Shown one piece after another: positions 1 through 18,511 of a stretch of 34,501 bases of DNA. Each line of letters opens with the position of its first letter. Position 1 is the stretch's first letter. Source of the stretch: Alphaproteobacteria bacterium (GTDB taxonomy: Bacteria > Pseudomonadota > Alphaproteobacteria > CAAGCB01 > CAG-977); assembly GCA_021639925.1 (NCBI GenBank), contig JAJXEL010000002.1, forward strand, positions 930 to 35,430. Direction: 5' to 3'. Position numbers and translations under genes: made by a program. The notes beneath the pieces were generated by a model. It did not search any database and was not told the DNA's origin. It saw nothing but the letters and a program-made list of their open reading frames with translations.

Positions 1-55
1 CTTTTTCTTCTTGGCTCATAGGAACACCTAAGCAATTTTGGACAGGATACTGACT
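1..55. repeat. copy 1 of a perfect 55-bp direct repeat (ctttttcttcttggctcataggaacacctaagcaattttggacaggatactgact)
   Basis: Identical to 331-385. The sequences diverge at nt 56 versus nt 386. Confidence 0.95.
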
Positions 56-349
56 TATTGCGCCATACCATTTTTTGCGGGCTTCACCTTCGCCGCCGTA
101 TTGATATGCTTCAATAACCCCCAGTTTTTCAACAAGTTTCCGAATTTCTGAAGCAAAAGGAGATGTCTCTCCTTTTTTTGCTTTTGTTTCTCCCTTTTTG
201 GGGGATGGAGACGGTTTATGATAAACGTTAATCATAACAAAGCCATTGCCGACAATATTACCATCACCCGTTACATTGTTTGATGTAGGAGTGTTCGGAA
301 CGCTATCTTTGAACAGGTTAATAATATTGTCTTTTTCTTCTTGGCTCAT
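1..349 (-). CDS. hypothetical protein absent from the supplied ORF track; open to the left window edge, so the C-terminus is missing
   Basis: ATG at 349 (rc of cat 347-349) with AGGTG 5 nt upstream, starting 9 nt after the repressor stop on the same strand. Hand translation: MSQEEKDNIINLFKDSVPNTPTSNNVTGDGNIVGNGFVMINVYHKPSPSPKKGETKAKKGETSPFASEIRKLVEKLGVIEAYQYGGEGEARKKWYGAISQYPVQNCLGVPMSQEEK. There is no in-frame stop down to nt 2. I recognise no family. Confidence 0.4.
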   Translation of the reverse strand, partial: MSQEEKDNIINLFKDSVPNTPTSNNVTGDGNIVGNGFVMINVYHKPSPSPKKGETKAKKGETSPFASEIRKLVEKLGVIEAYQYGGEGEARKKWYGAISQYPVQNCLGVPMSQEEK

Positions 350-385
350 AGGAACACCTAAGCAATTTTGGACAGGATACTGACT
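331..385. repeat. copy 2 of the 55-bp direct repeat; spans the last 8 codons and stop of the repressor, the RBS, and the first 6 codons of the downstream ORF
   Basis: Identical to 1-55. The offset is exactly 330 bp, a multiple of 3. Confidence 0.95.
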
Positions 386-780
386 ATCTGTGCAGATGAA
401 GGCTTGTTTTCAGACGTAAAAAGGTCATATATAGCTAAAATAAGCTCCGCTTTTTTAGCGGGATTTAAAGCTCTATTCGTTGCAGTTAAAGATTCTTCAA
501 CGGTTTCAATGGCTGAGAGCAATTCCTTTCTGTTCGGTTTTACAGACGTTCCCTCAGAAAATTCTCTTCCCGTAGCCAACCAGTCCAAACTTACACCAGC
601 AACGTTTGCCAAAGAAGCAACCGCTTTAAAAGAGGGTTTTGCTTTTCCGTCTCTCCATTTCGCAACTTGTTCAGCCGTCACCCCGGCTATTTGCGCTGCA
701 TTTTGAAGTGTTCCGATTCTGTTAAGAACAGTTTTAAAGCCAGTTTCAAAATAATCATCGTTACTTGAAACTTTTGTCAT
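358..780 (-). CDS. prophage repressor, CI/XRE-type helix-turn-helix, no S24 peptidase domain (140 aa from the ATG)
   Basis: HTH segment LQNAAQIAGVTAEQVAKWRDGKAKPSFKAVASLANVAGVSLDWLATG. It is divergent from ner across an operator-rich AT-rich intergenic region. The ATG at 780 has AGGA upstream, whereas the track start at 786 is TTG. Confidence 0.75.
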   Translation of the reverse strand: MTKVSSNDDYFETGFKTVLNRIGTLQNAAQIAGVTAEQVAKWRDGKAKPSFKAVASLANVAGVSLDWLATGREFSEGTSVKPNRKELLSAIETVEESLTATNRALNPAKKAELILAIYDLFTSENKPSSAQIVSILSKIA

Positions 781-799
781 CGACAAAAATCCTTTTTCA

Positions 800-905
800 A
801 AAAGAAATATATCGTTTTAAATCATATATTTAAGACAAAAAACGATACAATCCAACTTTAAACTCGATTTTTATCGTTGACTGTATCGATAAAAATCGAT
901 ATGTT
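800..905. promoter_or_regulatory. immunity operator / divergent promoter region
   Basis: Inverted repeat tatcgtttt (810-818) / aaaacgata (839-847). 13-bp inverted repeat tcgatttttatcg (864-876) / cgataaaaatcga (887-899). The TATCG(T/A)T motif recurs at least five times. A rightward promoter-like TTGACT (877-882) - 17 nt - TATGTT (900-905) has one repeat arm in its spacer. Confidence 0.6.
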
Positions 906-938
906 GATTATACAAAGTTAATTTAACACCCCAGAAAA

Positions 939-960
939 AACCGACTTGGCAGAGTCGGTT
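939..960 (-). terminator. 8-bp hairpin in the ner leader; terminator-like only when read on the minus strand
   Basis: aaccgact (939-946) pairs with agtcggtt (953-960), loop tggcag. An A-run sits on the + strand 5' side, which is a T-run after the hairpin on the minus strand. Confidence 0.3.
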
Positions 961-983
961 AGAACGGAGGACGGAGACACGTT

Positions 984-1265
984 ATGAGATACACGGCGGT
1001 ACAGATCAAATGCAAAATCCTGCTTAAAGGAATGACGTTAAAAAGTCTTTCACTAAAAGCCGGATTATCTGCCCGAGCCTGTTCGGTTGCTCTCATTAAG
1101 CCGTTCCCTGCCGCAGAAGAAGCTATCGCCGAATTTTTAGGCATTCCTGCCCGACAACTTTGGCCAAACCGCTTTAATGCGGACGGGAGCCGCAAATGTT
1201 CCCGACTTTCTAAATATAACGGGATTCGCATTTTTCGGCAATGTCAAAACGACAAGGCGGCTTAA
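984..1265 (+). CDS. ner: Ner-like DNA-binding protein (Mu Ner/Nlp family)
   Basis: IKCKILLKGMTLKSLSLKAGLSARACSVALIKPFPAAEEAIAEFLGIPARQLWPNRF resembles the Ner/Nlp HTH and the conserved IWPSRY-type C-terminal motif. It is the first rightward gene, opposite the repressor. Confidence 0.75.
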   Translation: MRYTAVQIKCKILLKGMTLKSLSLKAGLSARACSVALIKPFPAAEEAIAEFLGIPARQLWPNRFNADGSRKCSRLSKYNGIRIFRQCQNDKAA

Positions 1266-8692: not shown

Positions 8693-9091
8693 ATGTCGCA
8701 GTTGACAGGAGTTTTGGCGGAATTTGAAGAAATCGCCGGCTTTGCCGCAGCAATCAAAATTGCGGCGGTCAAGGGCGGAACGGTTGCTTATATCCCGCAA
8801 CCGCGAAACCTGAAGCCCGAACACTGGCTTTGCGCGGCAATCGGGTCGGAAGACGCCATTAAAATCGCAAAACAATTCGGCGGCAATGAAATTGAAATTC
8901 CTTTGGGCCCGTTCGGCGGGAATCGCGGCCGCGTGTGGCGCATTATCCGTCAGGCAATCAAAGACGGCCATTCCGCCGCCAAAGCCGCCCGCTTGGCCGG
9001 CGTAACGATGCGCACCGTCCGCCGCCACAAATCCGGCGAAACAGCGGGAAATAAGGAAAAGGAGGGTCAGGGAGTGTTGTTTTTATTTTAA
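8693..9091 (+). CDS. mor: Mor/C-family transcriptional activator
   Basis: GGTVAYIP block (compare GGGQVYIP in Mu Mor) and C-terminal HTH SAAKAARLAGVTMRTVRRH. About 130 aa, last gene of the early/middle block. Confidence 0.6.
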   Translation: MSQLTGVLAEFEEIAGFAAAIKIAAVKGGTVAYIPQPRNLKPEHWLCAAIGSEDAIKIAKQFGGNEIEIPLGPFGGNRGRVWRIIRQAIKDGHSAAKAARLAGVTMRTVRRHKSGETAGNKEKEGQGVLFLF

Positions 9092-11364
9092 CATCCAAGG
9101 GATGATTTCAGTTCCCTTATTTCTTTTAAGTGAGTATTTCTATTCTTCGTTTCTTCTTCTTCCAACAACCATTTTTCTGCATCATCTAACATACTTAAAA
9201 TCTCTTTTTCTTTTAAGCCATGTAACCTGACATAAGAGGCAAGCTGCTCAGAAAAAATATAGACATGATAAGCTTTTCGTCTATCACTTTCATAACAATT
9301 CTTTAATATTCTTAAGCTCTTAACAAGTTCTTCTTTCGCTTCATTATTTTTTCTTGAAGCTTCAAAATTTGCGTTGAACATAATAACGGCTTGAGTGTTT
9401 AACAAAGAAAAATCGCCCAAAAATGAAGATGAGATCGCTTTTTGAATCCAAAAAAATGCATCTGTGAAATTTTTTTGTTTAGATAAATAAAGCGAAAACT
9501 GCTGCTTTAAGTAAGGAGAATTATCTTTTTGCATAGCATTCATATAAAATAATTTTCCTTCTTCTATATTTTTAAAGTATTTATATATATAATCTGAATC
9601 ATAGCCTCTACGTTTAAAGATATAGTAATCAACGATATTAATCGGCGATATCCTTTCATGGAATTGAATTAAAACCTCCTTCATTAAATCTATAGAAGCA
9701 TTGTTTAAAATCGTCTCTTTTAATATTTTTGATCTAATTTCAAAAAATTCTTGATTTTCTTTGTATTTTACGCTTGATGGATCTATATCTACGATTAGAT
9801 TTCTTAATTTTTCAATGGACGCCACGGTATCCAAAATAGGTTTTTTAGAAAAAGAAATTATCATATTCATGGACATCGGTAGACGACAGTCTTTCATATA
9901 GCAAATAGCTAACAAAATTTTTAAAAGTTCCGGATCATTAAGCTCCAGATCAGAAAACAAACGAGAAAAACGTTCTTTTAATGAAGAATTCTTTATGTTT
10001 TTTTCCACAAACTCAAAAATGGTGTCATTATCTATAAAACGAAAATAAGTTGTTTTTTTGAGATTTAAAGGGATTGTGTTGAATAAATTTGAAGCATCTT
10101 TTTTTGATATATTATCAATTATTATTTTAGAAAAATTCTCTTTTTTTATTTTATGAGAAACTGTTTCATAAAAATAAATTAAATCTGTAGCGATAATTTG
10201 TATATTTTTCTCTTCTTGAAAGACGCGCAGAGCATCAACATCATTTACAAAATCATCTATGAAAATCGTCAACTTTTGCCTCTCTTTTTTTATAAGATTA
10301 ACAATATACAATGCTATTTCTTTCGTCGGAGAGGTAAGATATATTTTTTGCTTTCCTTTTAACTCACAAGCCAATTGCATTAACAAAGTACTTTTCCCAG
10401 AAGACGGAGTCCCAAGAAGTAAAATATTTTCATTTTTATATATTTTTTCAAGTACATTATGAAATGTAGATATTTTATACAGACCACCCCCCAAAACATC
10501 AATCCACTCGGGTTGATTTCCACAATAAAAATCATCAATATTTCTAAAATAGGGGGCAATAGTTGGGACAGAATATCTAGAAATGCTATTTTGTCTCTGT
10601 GTAATCTTTTTTTGGTTTTGAAGCTCTTTAATATGTTTTAAAAAGTCTTTTACATCGCCCGTTATCGGCTTAAATCCTAAAGATTCATAATATTCTGTTT
10701 TTTCTATATTATTTGATATAATCCAGAAATTCTTTTTGTTCCTTGAGTTTGAGCACGCCCTATTTATAGCAGCAAGGACATCATTATCTTTCATAGATGT
10801 CCCGATAAAGACAGTAGGACACTCTTCACATTGAATAGACAATCTATTGAATAAAGTGTTCTCATATTGCAAATGCCCCGTAGCCATGTCTATAGCCGAA
10901 AAAGGCATTTTTTGATTATTTAAAATACTTCCATGTAAAGGTATATAACGAATGATTTCAGGGGAAGAGGGTTCTCCTCTTATAGTAACATCACGTAGTG
11001 AAAATGAAGAATTATCTTCATATATCTTATATATCAAATCGTCAACGTTAACTGTAAAAATATTATTACAATTTAATTTTAATATATTTTTATATTCTGG
11101 ATCATATTCATCAACGGTAAATGTTTCTTTAAGAAATTTTTCTAACTCTCCAGGGAATCTAGCTTTAATTATAGACGTAACCTCTTGTAAATCATCACCT
11201 GAAACCTGATACTTTTTTTTCAGTTGCATACATAATGCTTGACCTATGGGAAGATTCTCTTTACTTTTATTTTTGGCGTAAACAGAAAATCCTGCACCTA
11301 AGAAAAGATTGATCTCATTTTGGAGATCTTGGTTGAAAATTTCTATCATTTCAGATTTCAGCAT
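9088..11364 (-). CDS. SIR2-like / P-loop NTPase (STAND-like) / helical-repeat protein; Avs5 (AVAST type V)-like defence candidate, 758 aa
   Basis: SIR2_2-type blocks LFLGAGFS, FTVNVDDL, IPLHGS and VFIGTSMKDNDV. Walker A LLLGTPSSGKSTLLMQLA and Walker B LTIFIDDF. Long helical C-terminus. The ATG at 11364 is preceded by GAGGAG at a 6-nt spacing. The track start (11451) lies in a terminator hairpin. Strongly AT-rich: hand counts of two 60-nt lines gave 15% and 35% G+C, versus about 63% in a flanking line. Confidence 0.8.
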   Translation of the reverse strand: MLKSEMIEIFNQDLQNEINLFLGAGFSVYAKNKSKENLPIGQALCMQLKKKYQVSGDDLQEVTSIIKARFPGELEKFLKETFTVDEYDPEYKNILKLNCNNIFTVNVDDLIYKIYEDNSSFSLRDVTIRGEPSSPEIIRYIPLHGSILNNQKMPFSAIDMATGHLQYENTLFNRLSIQCEECPTVFIGTSMKDNDVLAAINRACSNSRNKKNFWIISNNIEKTEYYESLGFKPITGDVKDFLKHIKELQNQKKITQRQNSISRYSVPTIAPYFRNIDDFYCGNQPEWIDVLGGGLYKISTFHNVLEKIYKNENILLLGTPSSGKSTLLMQLACELKGKQKIYLTSPTKEIALYIVNLIKKERQKLTIFIDDFVNDVDALRVFQEEKNIQIIATDLIYFYETVSHKIKKENFSKIIIDNISKKDASNLFNTIPLNLKKTTYFRFIDNDTIFEFVEKNIKNSSLKERFSRLFSDLELNDPELLKILLAICYMKDCRLPMSMNMIISFSKKPILDTVASIEKLRNLIVDIDPSSVKYKENQEFFEIRSKILKETILNNASIDLMKEVLIQFHERISPINIVDYYIFKRRGYDSDYIYKYFKNIEEGKLFYMNAMQKDNSPYLKQQFSLYLSKQKNFTDAFFWIQKAISSSFLGDFSLLNTQAVIMFNANFEASRKNNEAKEELVKSLRILKNCYESDRRKAYHVYIFSEQLASYVRLHGLKEKEILSMLDDAEKWLLEEEETKNRNTHLKEIRELKSSLGC

Positions 11365-11404
11365 AATCAACTCCTCATAAAATACCCTTAAAAGATATAA
11401 CATA

Positions 11405-11429
11405 TCCCCCTGACAAATGACACAATTTT
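11405..11429. repeat. copy A of a shared 25-bp element tccccctgacaaatgacacaatttt, in the 5' flank of the SIR2-NTPase gene
   Basis: Identical to 18196-18220. It lies 41-65 nt upstream of the ATG at 11364 on the minus strand. The track ORFs read it in different frames in the two copies, so it is non-coding. Confidence 0.9.
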
Positions 11430-11432
11430 TTA

Positions 11433-11460
11433 GAATGGCAGATTCTGCCATTCTTTTTTT
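11433..11460 (+). terminator. strong intrinsic terminator oriented for + strand transcription
   Basis: gaatggcag (11433-11441) pairs with ctgccattc (11445-11453): 9-bp perfect stem, 3-nt loop, then 7 T (11454-11460). Confidence 0.7.
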
Positions 11461-11489
11461 GTGTTTATTGAAACAGAGGGAAAATAACT

Positions 11490-11690
11490 ATGGCTGATTT
11501 GGCTGACATGGCGCAGGCAGAACAGGAACGACTGAACGCCCGATCCGCAGAGCGTCTGACGCGGAATCATGCGCTGGAAACATTGGAATTTTGCGCCGAA
11601 TGCGGGGAACCGATTCCCGAAGCCCGCCGTTTGGCCGTTCCGGGATGCCGTCTGTGCATTGATTGCCAGACGGAACGGGAGTGCGGCTGA
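11490..11690 (+). CDS. TraR/DksA-family C4 zinc finger protein
   Basis: CAECGEPIPEARRLAVPGCRLCIDCQ is a four-Cys motif. 66 aa. Confidence 0.75.
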   Translation: MADLADMAQAEQERLNARSAERLTRNHALETLEFCAECGEPIPEARRLAVPGCRLCIDCQTERECG

Positions 11691-17019: not shown

Positions 17020-17117
17020 GGAGTGGTCAAGGCGGGTACGCTACTCTCCGCTACATCCGAGCCCTTGTTACAGGGGTCTGACCGTCATCCGATTTCCTTG
17101 TCAAGCAAGACCACTCC
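17020..17117. other. 98-nt GC-rich element closed by a perfect 9-bp long-range stem; candidate structured RNA or miniature inverted-repeat element
   Basis: ggagtggtc (17020-17028) pairs with gaccactcc (17109-17117). Internal hairpins at 17031-17036/17047-17052 and 17059-17065/17072-17078. CATCCGA direct repeat at 17054-17060 and 17086-17092. Confidence 0.4.
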
Positions 17118-17170
17118 AATAATTTAATTATACGTTTTCCGTGAATAAAAATCAAGAAAGGAGGTTTAAG

Positions 17171-17287
17171 ATGATAGAAACCGTACAAATACCCGTCTGT
17201 ACCTGTCCGGAGGTCATTGATTTGTTTTATCCGAGCCTTTTCCTTTTCGCCGGATTTGCCCTTTGGCTGATGTTTAAACACGCATAA
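17171..17287 (+). CDS. 38-aa hydrophobic peptide ORF, not in the supplied track
   Basis: AAAGGAGG lies 7 nt upstream of the ATG at 17171. Translation MIETVQIPVCTCPEVIDLFYPSLFLFAGFALWLMFKHA, stop TAA at 17285-17287, followed by a terminator. Confidence 0.5.
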   Translation: MIETVQIPVCTCPEVIDLFYPSLFLFAGFALWLMFKHA

Positions 17288-17305
17288 AAAAACAAAAACC
17301 GAAAT

Positions 17306-17337
17306 AAAGCCGTTTAACAGCGGCTTTGTCATTTTTT
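17306..17337. terminator. bidirectional intrinsic terminator between the convergent 38-aa ORF and the 263-aa gene
   Basis: The stem 17306-17314 / 17319-17327 (aaagccgtt / agcggcttt, one G-U pair) has loop taac. There are 6 T at 17332-17337 on the + strand and a T-rich tract on the minus strand (rc of 17286-17305). Confidence 0.65.
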
Positions 17338-17383
17338 GGCTATGGTTCTTACGTCTTTATCCCCAAAACGCACACAGACCCGT

Positions 17384-18175
17384 TTAATACCCGTTTAACG
17401 GCGATGTTTTTAAGGCAAAAACATTTTTATACATTTCATCACGGAGCAAAAGAGGTATTGACTTAAGCAAATCATACTGAGAATAAAAATAGTAAAGAAT
17501 CAGAGAGGCAATACGCATTGCAATATTTGCATCATCACGTTGGGATTGGGAAAGATAAGATTGAAGGGCATAAGGACTGTGGTGTTTGTACGCGCATAAC
17601 AACTGATACATTTTCCGTTCCATGAAAATATGAGGTAGAATCTCTCTTTCCGCATCAGACAAAGACGGATCGTTTTGTTTTTCAGAAAGCTGTTTTTCCA
17701 TCTTTTCCAGTGTGGAACCGTGCCAGACTTTCCTATAATTCTTTCGGTTTAAGTAATCCGCATCGCTTTTAAATGTGACATTCGGTAATTTAAAGCGTTC
17801 CGGGTTTATTTGTTTAATTTTATACAAATATTTTCCTGCTTTTGCGGGCTGTTGGCTTAGGTGAGGCAAGCTTTCAATCCACCCAAAATCAAAAAATTCT
17901 TTAATTTTTTCTTCTGTATTGCAAATCAGGAGCCATTCCAAAACGATGAACTGTTCAAACATTTGACAGGCAATAATGCCGCCGCTGTACGGGTCGGCCG
18001 AAGATAAATATAGAACGCTTCTTGATGCGTTAAGAGCGCGTTTAAAAAATAAACTTTTTATCCTATCCTTTATCGTTCTTTCAGGAAAATTTTGTTTTTC
18101 CCCGAATCTGCACAGCTTTTTTAAGGTTTTCCTTAGCTCTTCCGTAGAGCAGTTATAATAATCTTCCATACACAT
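17384..18175 (-). CDS. hypothetical cargo protein (263 aa from ATG 18175; ATG 18169 is also possible), no family recognised
   Basis: Long minus-strand ORF inside an otherwise + strand late operon. Lower G+C than the flanks (hand counts of two lines gave 32% and 43%). The track start at 18214 is GTG and lies inside the shared 25-bp element. No clear SD sequence. Confidence 0.6.
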   Translation of the reverse strand: MCMEDYYNCSTEELRKTLKKLCRFGEKQNFPERTIKDRIKSLFFKRALNASRSVLYLSSADPYSGGIIACQMFEQFIVLEWLLICNTEEKIKEFFDFGWIESLPHLSQQPAKAGKYLYKIKQINPERFKLPNVTFKSDADYLNRKNYRKVWHGSTLEKMEKQLSEKQNDPSLSDAEREILPHIFMERKMYQLLCAYKHHSPYALQSYLSQSQRDDANIAMRIASLILYYFYSQYDLLKSIPLLLRDEMYKNVFALKTSPLNGY

Positions 18176-18195
18176 TTTAACAAAAACAGGGGCTT

Positions 18196-18220
18196 TCCCC
18201 CTGACAAATGACACAATTTT
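18196..18220. repeat. copy B of the shared 25-bp element tccccctgacaaatgacacaatttt, in the 5' flank of the 263-aa gene
   Basis: Identical to 11405-11429. It lies 21-45 nt upstream of the ATG at 18175 on the minus strand. Confidence 0.9.
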
Positions 18221-18289: not shown

Positions 18290-18511
18290 ATGGCAAACAA
18301 GGAAAACGAAGCGTCGAAAAATGAAGCGGAAGCAAAAAAGGTTTCCGCCGGCATCGGCAAAGCAGACGTTTTAAAAATTCTGTGCGACAACAAAGTTGAA
18401 ATCATCGGACGCAAAGGTATTGCCGAACGTGACGTGCTGTCTTTTGCCGAACGGGGAAACGACGTCGTTGTCGTGACCTGCGACGGACGCAAACACGTTT
18501 TGAAAAAATAA
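18290..18511 (+). CDS. hypothetical small protein (73 aa)
   Basis: TAAGGAG lies 6 nt upstream of the ATG at 18290. Lys/Glu-rich N-terminus. Directly upstream of the protease-capsid gene. Confidence 0.5.
   Translation: MANKENEASKNEAEAKKVSAGIGKADVLKILCDNKVEIIGRKGIAERDVLSFAERGNDVVVVTCDGRKHVLKK

What the first reader, a model, noticed from the sequence alone, without database searches (positions are those of the whole stretch)
9088..11460. AT-rich antisense cargo gene encoding a SIR2 / P-loop NTPase / helical-repeat protein wedged between mor and the late genes
One 758-aa minus-strand ORF interrupts an otherwise uniformly + strand Mu-like genome, and its base composition is clearly foreign. The N-terminal ~250 aa carry all four blocks I associate with the SIR2_2 family (GAGxS: LFLGAGFS; TxNxD: FTVNVDDL; LHG: IPLHGS; GxSxxD: VFIGTSMKDNDV). 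These are followed by Walker A (GTPSSGKST), Walker B (IFIDDF) and about 350 aa of helical repeats. SIR2 fused to a STAND-like NTPase and a repeat sensor is the architecture of AVAST type V / Avs5 NAD-depleting abortive-infection proteins. Its stop overlaps the mor stop in a shared TTAA (9088-9091) with no intervening terminator. This suggests the insertion rebuilt the mor 3' end (Mor tail ...GVLFLF).
Basis: partly seen in the sequence, partly recalled or inferred. Interest (0 to 1): 0.75.

Follow-up and report, generated by a model that had tools for sequence, protein, structure and literature searches.

The report
Prophage-borne Avs5-like SIR2-STAND defence gene
A Mu-like prophage of uncultured gut Alphaproteobacteria carries, in a swap-in/swap-out cargo slot right after its mor gene, an intact single-gene immune sensor (SIR2 NADase + STAND ATPase + helical sensor) that is a distant, uncharacterised relative of the known Avs5 anti-phage proteins; this is a good new example of known biology, not a new kind of system.

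Summary
A 758-aa minus-strand gene (9088-11364) lies in a 29% GC block within a ~50% GC Mu-like prophage, and its stop overlaps the mor stop in TTAA. The longest ORF (787 aa, to 11451) runs artefactually into conserved phage DNA. Pfam places SIR2_2 and nSTAND_NTPase5/nSTAND3 above cutoff. The SIR2 catalytic Asn/Asp/His and Walker A/B are invariant in 53 homologues. The AlphaFold model's best full-length PDB matches are the two solved Avs5 filaments (E=1e-24 and 4e-18), and a profile bridge to EfAvs5 confirms homology. PADLOC does not call it Avs5, identity to solved Avs5 is 14-18%, and this subclade has Leu at the putative sensor-1 Arg. The gene is cargo. In 19 related prophage loci the interval from the mor stop to a conserved 24-nt element plus terminator holds eight different low-GC cargos, most of them recognised or candidate defence systems. 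The SIR2-STAND cassette is 98% identical between phage backbones that are only 75-80% identical, and dN/dS is 0.09-0.22. The most likely function is phage-triggered NAD+ depletion (abortive infection), which is inferred and not shown. Verdict: a new member of a known kind, of moderate interest.

The parts
9088..11364 (-). SIR2-STAND (Avs5-like) CDS, 758 aa plus stop. The true start is the ATG at 11364-11362.
   Evidence: Homologues are 758 aa. dN/dS is 0.09-0.22.
10615..11364 (-). N-terminal SIR2_2 effector domain (about aa 1-250): G23-A-G25-F26-S27, N106/D108, H144-G145, G188.
   Evidence: Pfam PF13289, 46.8 bits. These residues are invariant in 53 homologues. The profile matches the SIR2 domains of ThsA and KomC.
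9730..10581 (-). STAND NTPase module (about aa 262-545): Walker A G318-x4-G323-K324-S-T326, Walker B D370-D371, helical and winged-helix subdomains. Leu395 sits where 43 of 53 homologues have the putative sensor-1 Arg.
   Evidence: PF25199, 49 bits, and PF20720, 31.7 bits..
9091..9729 (-). C-terminal all-helical putative sensor domain (about aa 546-758).
   Evidence: AF2 secondary structure. The full-length Foldseek alignment to Avs5 and SAMD9 spans it. The hhalign alignment to the 850-aa group extends through it.
9084..11405 (.). Low-GC cargo cassette, the unit that is exchanged.
   Evidence: Homology to relatives with other cargos stops after 9083 and resumes at 11406. The cassette is 98.3% identical to L001/L002, while the backbones are 75-80% identical.
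8693..9091 (+). mor (Mor-family activator), C-terminally extended by Leu-Phe because the cassette junction lies inside its stop codon.
   Evidence: PF08765, 26.4 bits. Junction alignment.
9088..9091 (.). TTAA containing both convergent stop codons.
11371..11376 (-). GAGGAG Shine-Dalgarno sequence, 6 nt upstream of the 758-aa start. It lies in the 41-bp cassette-specific leader (11365-11405).
   Evidence: Sequence read.
11406..11429 (+). Conserved 24-nt element CCCCCTGACAAATGACACAATTTT that marks the right border of the slot. Its function is unknown; it may be a promoter or activator site.
   Evidence: It sits at the slot border in all 12 related loci that reach it. An exact second copy lies at 18197-18220, with 0 expected by chance.
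11432..11461 (+). Conserved 10-bp-stem hairpin plus T7 run, probably the terminator of the early (mor) operon.
   Evidence: The fold has z = -6.2.
11490..11690 (+). First gene of the next + strand operon (DksA/TraR zinc finger).
   Evidence: PF01258, 50.1 bits.

Best explanation
The gene encodes a single-protein antiviral STAND receptor of the Avs5 type. The prophage carries it as an exchangeable defence cassette between the mor stop codon and the early-operon terminator.

Proposed mechanism, by analogy with EfAvs5 and PaAvs5. In the lysogen the protein is made from its own promoter and stays inactive with nucleotide bound. The C-terminal helical domain recognises a protein of a superinfecting phage. 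The NOD then drives oligomerisation, possibly into filaments, which brings SIR2 domains together. The SIR2 domain (Asn106, Asp108, His144) hydrolyses NAD+, which starves the infected cell and aborts the infection. This protects sister lysogens and therefore the prophage.

What is shown: domain identity, catalytic-residue conservation, purifying selection, structural and profile homology to Avs5, cargo status and hotspot status. What is inferred: NADase activity, the trigger, the oligomeric state, abortive infection, and expression in the lysogen.
For: Domains pass Pfam cutoffs. SIR2 and Walker motifs are invariant in 53 homologues. The confident AF2 model (pLDDT 82.5) has as its top PDB hits EfAvs5 9JAP (E=9.8e-25) and the AVAST5 filament 9NC9 (E=4e-18) over about 820-860 aligned columns, followed by SAMD9, DSR2 and ThsA.

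The family profile aligns over its full length to an 850-aa SIR2-STAND group (hhalign probability 100%, E=2.8e-51). That group's profile hits EfAvs5 at 6.6e-20 across NOD and sensor.

dN/dS is 0.09-0.22 and the ORF is intact in four independent loci. No partner gene is conserved across Capnocytophaga, Paenibacillus, a mobilizable element and the phage. The 76% homologue lies beside a Type III R-M system and a relaxase/ArdC module.

The same phage slot carries a Type II R-M pair, PD-Lambda-5, an ABC-3C system (PDC-M68), DUF5131/TcmP (PDC-M41), PIN_12 and GHKL proteins in relatives. The cassette is 98.3% identical across backbones that are 75-80% identical.

The Avs5 mechanism is taken from PMC11897194 and PMC12931631.
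Against: PADLOC v2 gives no Avs5/AVAST hit, only a weak P-loop match to mads_8. A single-sequence search finds no solved Avs5. Identity to solved Avs5 is 14-18%, and the global TM-score is only about 0.3, so domain orientations differ.

The window's subclade has Leu at the [D/E]-R position that probably corresponds to the STAND sensor-1 Arg (the TTR motif in EfAvs5), so nucleotide handling may differ. No sigma-70-like promoter was found for the gene. No experimental data exist for any member of this family, and the trigger is unknown.
Confidence: 0.78

Rival explanations
1. It is a STAND-regulated SIR2 defence protein, but the effector chemistry is not bulk NAD+ hydrolysis. For example, it could ADP-ribosylate a target or make a signalling nucleotide. 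Alternatively, activation could be nucleotide-independent because of the sensor-1 Arg-to-Leu change.
For: Sensor-1 Arg is replaced by Leu in this subclade. Walker B is DD here but mostly DN in the family. Sequence distance from characterised Avs5 is large.
Against: The SIR2 catalytic constellation matches that of the defence NADases ThsA, DSR2, KomC and Avs5. All characterised SIR2_2 defence effectors retrieved here act by NAD+ processing or depletion.
Confidence: 0.12
2. It mainly benefits the phage as a superinfection-exclusion or addiction module and is not a general host defence. For example, it might fire on loss of the prophage, or only against close relatives of this Mu-like phage.
For: It is prophage-borne, occupies a dedicated cassette slot, and is convergent with the early operon, so lytic transcription would run antisense through it.
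Against: Family members are chromosomal singletons and plasmid or mobilizable-element genes with no phage context. The protein therefore works independently of this phage. No antitoxin-like partner gene is present.
Confidence: 0.06
3. It is a non-functional or non-immune passenger, for example a regulatory protein deacetylase or a decaying gene.
For: No promoter was detected, PADLOC gives no assignment, and there are no experimental data.
Against: dN/dS is 0.09-0.22, the ORFs are intact and all catalytic residues are retained. The architecture and fold are those of antiviral STANDs. The slot-mates are defence systems.
Confidence: 0.04

Closest known systems
Avs5 / AVAST type 5 (EfAvs5, PDB 9JAP; PaAvs5, PDB 9NC9)
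   Same: Both are single polypeptides with an N-terminal SIR2_2 NADase domain, a central nSTAND3/5-type (SAMD9-like) NOD and a C-terminal helical sensor, about 760-870 aa long. These are the best full-length structural matches. Transitive profile homology is shown. Walker A/B and the SIR2 Asn/His are conserved.
   Different: Identity is 14-18%. PADLOC models do not detect it. The best Pfam NOD model is nSTAND_NTPase5, whereas EfAvs5 is assigned to nSTAND3. The putative sensor-1 Arg is Leu in this subclade. The trigger is unknown, and filament formation is untested. The gene is phage-borne in a Mu-like prophage of gut Alphaproteobacteria, whereas the characterised examples come from E. fergusonii, E. 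coli and P. aeruginosa.
Human SAMD9/SAMD9L and bacterial Avs6/Avs9 (SAMD9-like STANDs)
   Same: The SIR2-like plus P-loop NTPase plus helical region aligns structurally (9ZJS E=5e-14, TMq 0.38). Avs5 sensors are reported to cluster with SAMD9 (PMC12680541).
   Different: There is no AlbA_2, SAM or OB domain. The effector here is SIR2 alone, whereas Avs6 uses PNP and Avs9 uses AlbA_2.
Other SIR2 defence NADases (ThsA of Thoeris, DSR2, SIR2-HerA, KomC)
   Same: The SIR2_2 fold and catalytic residues are shared.
   Different: ThsA has a SLOG sensor and needs ThsB. DSR2 has no P-loop NTPase. SIR2-HerA and KomBC are multi-gene systems. Here the SIR2 is fused to a STAND NTPase and has no partner gene.
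Prophage defence hotspots (P2/P4 hotspots; Rousset 2022 and Vassallo 2022, as cited in PMC9519451)
   Same: Conserved phage flanks bracket a short, compositionally foreign, highly variable segment. That segment carries one defence system per phage and is exchanged between relatives.
   Different: The phage type and position differ. The slot lies between the mor stop codon and the early terminator / 24-nt element of a Mu-like transposable phage of uncultured gut Alphaproteobacteria. I found no description of this hotspot, although Mu-like phages are noted as defence carriers.

Membership tests
Avs5 (AVAST type 5, SIR2-STAND) | N-terminal SIR2 (SIR2_2) effector with an intact NAD-binding GAGxS motif and catalytic Asn/His | tested here: met
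   PF13289, 46.8 bits against a cutoff of 24.5. G23/G25/F26/S27, N106, D108 and H144 are invariant in 53 homologues.
Avs5 (AVAST type 5, SIR2-STAND) | Central STAND NOD of the nSTAND3/SAMD9-like type with Walker A and Walker B | tested here: met
   PF25199, 49 bits, and PF20720 (nSTAND3, the family named for EfAvs5 in PMC11897194), 31.7 bits against a cutoff of 27.2. G318, G323, K324, T326 and D370 are invariant.
Avs5 (AVAST type 5, SIR2-STAND) | Full-length fold similarity to solved Avs5, including the C-terminal sensor | tested here: met
   Foldseek gives 9JAP E=9.8e-25 (864 columns) and 9NC9 E=4e-18 as the top hits. The hhalign bridge is E=2.8e-51, and A4 to 9JAP is 6.6e-20 over NOD and sensor. 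Caveat: the global TM-score is about 0.3, and no per-domain superposition was done.
Avs5 (AVAST type 5, SIR2-STAND) | Recognition by a curated Avs5 sequence model (PADLOC or DefenseFinder) | tested here: not met
   PADLOC v2 returned no AVAST/Avs hit at E<=1 for this protein or for eight homologues. DefenseFinder was not available. I could not verify how broad the PADLOC Avs5 model is.
Avs5 (AVAST type 5, SIR2-STAND) | Conserved sensor-1 Arg (TTR motif, R453 in EfAvs5) that contacts the ATP gamma-phosphate | tested here: not met
   The family column is [D/E]-R in 43 of 53 sequences. The window, P0001, P0002 and P0003 have D-L. Equivalence to the EfAvs5 TTR motif is inferred from position after strand beta4 and was not checked by superposition.
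Avs5 (AVAST type 5, SIR2-STAND) | Single-gene system with no obligatory partner | tested here: met
   Neighbours differ completely across the phage, a mobilizable element, and the Capnocytophaga and Paenibacillus chromosomes.
Avs5 (AVAST type 5, SIR2-STAND) | Phage-protein-triggered oligomerisation or filamentation, NAD+ depletion and phage protection | not testable with these tools
   Requires experiments. Known for EfAvs5 and PaAvs5 only.
Thoeris ThsA | SIR2 fused to a SLOG/STALD sensor and encoded next to a TIR protein (ThsB) | tested here: not met
   There is no SLOG domain, and the C-terminal part is a P-loop STAND. No TIR gene is adjacent. The match to ThsA covers only the SIR2 domain.
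DSR2 | SIR2 followed by alpha-solenoid MID/CTD with no NTPase | tested here: not met
   A Walker A/B STAND NTPase is present. DSR2 ranks below Avs5 and SAMD9 in the fold search.
Prophage defence-cassette hotspot | Conserved flanks, variable and compositionally foreign content, cargo dominated by defence systems, and evidence of exchange | tested here: met
   There are 19 loci and 8 cargo types, all 26-39% GC against about 50-55% in the flanks. PADLOC and Pfam identify a Type II R-M pair, PD-Lambda-5, PDC-M68 (ABC-3C), PDC-M41, PIN_12 and GHKL proteins. The junctions are sharp. Cargo is 98.3% identical against 75-80% for the backbone.

The most novel reading that the evidence does not exclude
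The interval from the mor stop to the terminator may be a purpose-built cassette-exchange site of Mu-like transposable phages. In this reading, the 24-nt element, which also borders a second variable low-GC slot at 18197-18220, and the mor 3' end serve as recombination anchors. The convergent orientation of abortive-infection cargos such as this SIR2-STAND would let early lytic transcription run antisense through the gene as far as the conserved terminator, silencing it when the prophage itself is induced. That would give self-immunity by transcriptional interference. In addition, the Arg-to-Leu sensor-1 subclade might work as a nucleotide-independent Avs5 variant.
Probability: 0.15. Interest if true: 0.55.

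Novelty: new member of a known kind. Interest (0 to 1): 0.4.

Why it matters
It adds a large, uncharacterised branch to the Avs5/SAMD9-like SIR2-STAND receptors: 580 clusters at 50% identity reach E<=1e-30. PADLOC v2.0.0, the one defence annotation library tested here, does not call it. It shows this branch moving on phages, plasmids and mobilizable elements among gut bacteria. It also defines a compact defence hotspot, with sharp junctions, in Mu-like prophages of uncultured human-gut Alphaproteobacteria. Two of its cargos have no PADLOC assignment (a GHKL ATPase and a PIN_12 protein), and there are unknown small proteins as well. All of these are cheap candidates for new defence genes. The biology is expected and does not shift any paradigm.

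Tried and rejected
- Megablast of the 6.5-kb region against 50,697 phage records found no match. tblastn of the protein against the same set also found none.
- The IMG/VR scan with Mor found no relatives.
- PADLOC gave no Avs5 hit.
- phmmer of the single protein against PDB sequences found nothing meaningful. Profile and fold methods were needed.
- NCBIfam returned only sub-threshold P-loop noise.
- The promoter scan found no sigma-70-like site upstream of the gene. My manual candidates (TTGTCA or TGnTATATC) are weak, and I do not claim them.
- The exact-protein look-up around the second slot returned only fragments 100% identical to the window, so it gave no information on variability. Only L009 and L010 show that this slot differs.
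- The degenerate core TGACANNTGACA found no further convincing copies.
- The supplement search of the Avs5 phylogeny paper for Capnocytophaga, Terrimonas, Paenibacillus or Bacteroid* found nothing. I cannot say whether this family is in the published four-clade tree.
- I rejected the 787-aa ORF as the gene. I also rejected ThsA, DSR2 and SIR2-HerA membership.
Full report
**1. Observation**

The ORF listing finds a minus-strand ORF at 9088-11451 (787 aa from the first ATG). GC falls to 0.27-0.34 between 9001 and 11500, against about 0.50 on both sides. The CDS has GC 0.29 and GC3 0.24, while four phage genes have GC3 0.52-0.61.

Three lines of evidence support this. The three closest homologues are 758 aa. 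A GAGGAG Shine-Dalgarno lies 6 nt upstream. The 29-codon extension runs into DNA that is conserved in related phages carrying entirely different cargos, where the same reading frame appears as the tail of spurious ORFs.

The mor stop (9089-9091) and the SIR2 stop (complement of 9088-9090) share TTAA. The claim that the rest of the phage is uniformly + strand is not accurate. The HTH repressor-like gene at 358-786 is on the minus strand, and so is a second low-GC block carrying a DUF5677 gene at 17384-18214.

**2. Context**

The window is a Mu-like transposable prophage. It encodes a Mu transposase (HTH_Tnp_Mu_1, rve, Mu-transpos_C), a MuB-like AAA protein, GemA, Mor, a DksA/TraR zinc-finger protein, gp27, terminase and further late genes. 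Relatives recovered with Mor come from human-gut MAGs labelled Alphaproteobacteria or Rhodospirillaceae and from human-gut metagenomes. No deposited phage genome resembles it.

**3. What the protein is**

*Domains and motifs.* Pfam gives SIR2_2 (residues 130-259 of the 787-aa numbering; 46.8 bits, cutoff 24.5), nSTAND_NTPase5 (49 bits, cutoff 34) and nSTAND3 (31.7 bits, cutoff 27.2). In a 53-sequence family alignment the following are invariant: G23, G25, F26, S27, N106, D108, H144, G145, G188 (SIR2) and G318, G323, K324, T326, D370 (Walker A/B).

*Family size.* An exhaustive HMM search finds 580 clusters (50% identity) at E<=1e-30. Nearly all of the top 150 are full-length proteins of about 770 aa. 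The family is therefore large, with a fixed architecture, and includes members from Capnocytophaga, Terrimonas and Paenibacillus.

*Structure.* The AlphaFold2 model is confident (mean pLDDT 82.5). It shows a Rossmann-like SIR2, an alpha/beta NBD, helical and winged-helix subdomains, and an all-helical C-terminal domain at residues 546-755. Foldseek against the PDB ranks EfAvs5 (9JAP, E=9.8e-25, 864 aligned columns, 18% identity) first and the AVAST5 filament (9NC9, E about 4e-18) next. Human SAMD9, DSR2 and ThsA follow. Global TM-scores are about 0.3, as expected when a monomer model is compared with filament-state multidomain chains.

*Sequence-level link to Avs5.* The family profile matches only the SIR2 domains of ThsA, KomC, SIR2-HerA and SIR2-APAZ, and the single sequence matches nothing. 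A bridge exists, however. The family aligns end to end with an approximately 850-aa SIR2-STAND group (hhalign probability 100%, E=2.8e-51, 742 columns). That group's profile hits EfAvs5 at 6.6e-20 across NOD and sensor.

PADLOC v2 returns no Avs hit for this protein or its homologues. I therefore file it as a distant member of the Avs5-type SIR2-STAND superfamily, not as a canonical Avs5.

*One notable difference.* In 43 of 53 family members the strand after Walker B ends in [D/E]-R, probably the STAND sensor-1 Arg (TTR/R453 in EfAvs5). The window and its three closest relatives have D-L.

**4. Cargo or core?**

*The slot is variable.* DNA homology between the window and seven genome-derived plus ten metagenome-derived relatives stops inside the mor stop codon (after 9083) and resumes at 11406. 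Counting the window, 19 informative loci carry eight different contents in the interval:

| Cargo | Loci | Strand |
|---|---|---|
| SIR2-STAND | window, L001, L002, L025 | − |
| DUF5131 + TcmP-like (PADLOC PDC-M41/M30) | L005, L019, L021 | − |
| GHKL ATPase, 637 aa | L008 | + |
| PIN_12 protein | L009, L010, L024 | − |
| ABC-3C system: HNH-CTD, MC6, DUF2326 (PDC-M68) | L011, L006 | + |
| C5-MTase + GHKL 'REase_II' (Type II R-M-like) | L018, L022, L023 | + |
| PD-Lambda-5 A+B | L026 | + |
| Unknown small proteins | L007, L020 | − |

All cargos are 26-39% GC in backbones of 48-56% GC. I saw no empty slot.

*The cassette moves.* The SIR2-STAND cassette is 98.3% identical between the window and L001/L002, whereas the flanking backbone is only 75-80% identical. 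This is direct evidence of recent cassette exchange between diverged phages.

*It also occurs outside phages.* The next-closest homologue (76% aa; DNA similarity limited exactly to the CDS) is also a low-GC island. It lies on a different element, beside a Type III R-M system, SLFN_AlbA_2, relaxase/MobC and ArdC genes.

*It is under selection.* dN/dS is 0.22, 0.17 and 0.09 at increasing divergence.

The gene is cargo.

*The mor 3' end.* Relatives end TTG TTT TAG or TAA. The window, L001, L002 and L025 read TTG TTT TTA TTT TAA, which adds Leu-Phe.

**5. Slot architecture**

The right border is an invariant 24-nt element, CCCCCTGACAAATGACACAATTTT. It is present at the border in all 12 loci that reach it. 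A conserved 10-bp-stem hairpin with a T7 run follows at 11432-11461 on the + strand (fold z = -6.2). After that come the RBS and ATG of the TraR-like gene.

The simplest reading is that the hairpin is the terminator of the early (mor) operon. On that reading, + strand cargos are early-operon passengers, and − strand cargos such as this one are convergent with early transcription.

The 24-nt element occurs once more in the window, exactly, at 18197-18220 (0 expected). That copy is again at the right edge of a low-GC minus-strand block (the DUF5677 gene) and upstream of a + strand operon (a 73-aa gene, then the capsid gene). In L009 and L010 the sequence after window position ~17160 is different, so the second slot is also variable. 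Whether the element is an activator-dependent promoter or a recombination anchor is unresolved.

**6. Mechanism (inferred)**

The model follows EfAvs5, which is activated by T7 gp1.7 and forms filaments that activate the SIR2 NADase (PMC11897194). It also follows PaAvs5, which senses JADA and depletes NAD+ (PMC12931631). The protein most likely senses a protein of an infecting phage through its helical C-terminal domain, oligomerises through the NOD, and depletes NAD+ through the SIR2 domain, causing abortive infection.

The trigger, the oligomeric state, the promoter and the effect of Leu395 are unknown. The idea that antisense early transcription silences the gene on prophage induction is a hypothesis only. 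Half of the cargo types are on the + strand, so orientation is not a general rule.

**7. Novelty and verdict**

SIR2-STAND/Avs5 proteins, their relation to SAMD9, prophage-encoded STANDs and prophage defence hotspots are all established. The following appear to be new:
- this particular large family is uncharacterised and unrecognised by PADLOC;
- it is found on a phage, with no homologue in about 50,700 deposited phage genomes and one on a plasmid;
- there is a sharply defined defence hotspot between mor and the early terminator in Mu-like prophages of gut Alphaproteobacteria, which I found no description of.

This is a new member of a known kind. Interest is moderate (0.4).

Noticed in passing
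window 18197-18220 and 17161-18196: There is an exact second copy of the 24-nt slot-border element (0 expected by chance). It sits at the right edge of a second low-GC (~0.40) block with a minus-strand DUF5677 gene (17384-18214) and a 93-aa ORF (17051-17332), upstream of a 73-aa gene (18290-18511) and the capsid gene. L009 and L010 diverge from the window after ~17160, so this looks like a second cargo slot with the same layout.
   Followed up: partly
window 11432-11461 (+): A 10-bp-stem hairpin plus T7 run is invariant in all related prophages. The 84-nt conserved flank folds with z = -6.2. It is probably the early-operon terminator, immediately upstream of the TraR-like gene's RBS, which leaves little room for a conventional promoter.
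   Followed up: partly
window 10180-10182 (codon for Leu395 of the 758-aa protein): The putative STAND sensor-1 Arg (R in 43 of 53 family members) is Leu in the window and in P0001-P0003. Walker B is DD in this subclade but mostly DN in the rest of the family.
   Followed up: partly
L003 1-14348: The 76%-identical homologue is itself a 27-30% GC island in a 41-51% GC mobilizable element. That element carries an SNF2 helicase, DUF4391, SLFN_AlbA_2, a Type III-like MTase plus ResIII/RE_endonuc, relaxase/MobC and ArdC. DNA similarity to the window is limited exactly to the CDS.
   Followed up: partly
L009 614-617, L010 1648-1651, L024 648: The PIN_12 cargo (353 aa, minus strand) also abuts mor, with its stop overlapping the mor stop by 4 nt, as the SIR2-STAND gene does. 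This suggests tight packing at the left junction.
   Followed up: no
L008 8461-10374; L009 614-1675; L007 8390-8812; L020 7390-7659: Several slot cargos have no PADLOC assignment: a 637-aa HATPase_c_3 (GHKL) protein, the PIN_12 protein, and small acidic proteins of 140 and 89 aa with no Pfam hit. Given their slot-mates, they are candidate new defence or counter-defence genes.
   Followed up: partly
L007 (CAVCSV010000039.1): A contig carrying this alphaproteobacterial Mu-like phage backbone is binned in a MAG labelled Limosilactobacillus gorillae. This is probably a binning artefact and not a real host.
   Followed up: no
window 1-1000: The left end of the window is also low in GC (0.39). It holds the minus-strand HTH_3/CI-like repressor gene (358-786), which gives weak PADLOC hits to RmrA/CapH-type HTH regulators.
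   Followed up: no
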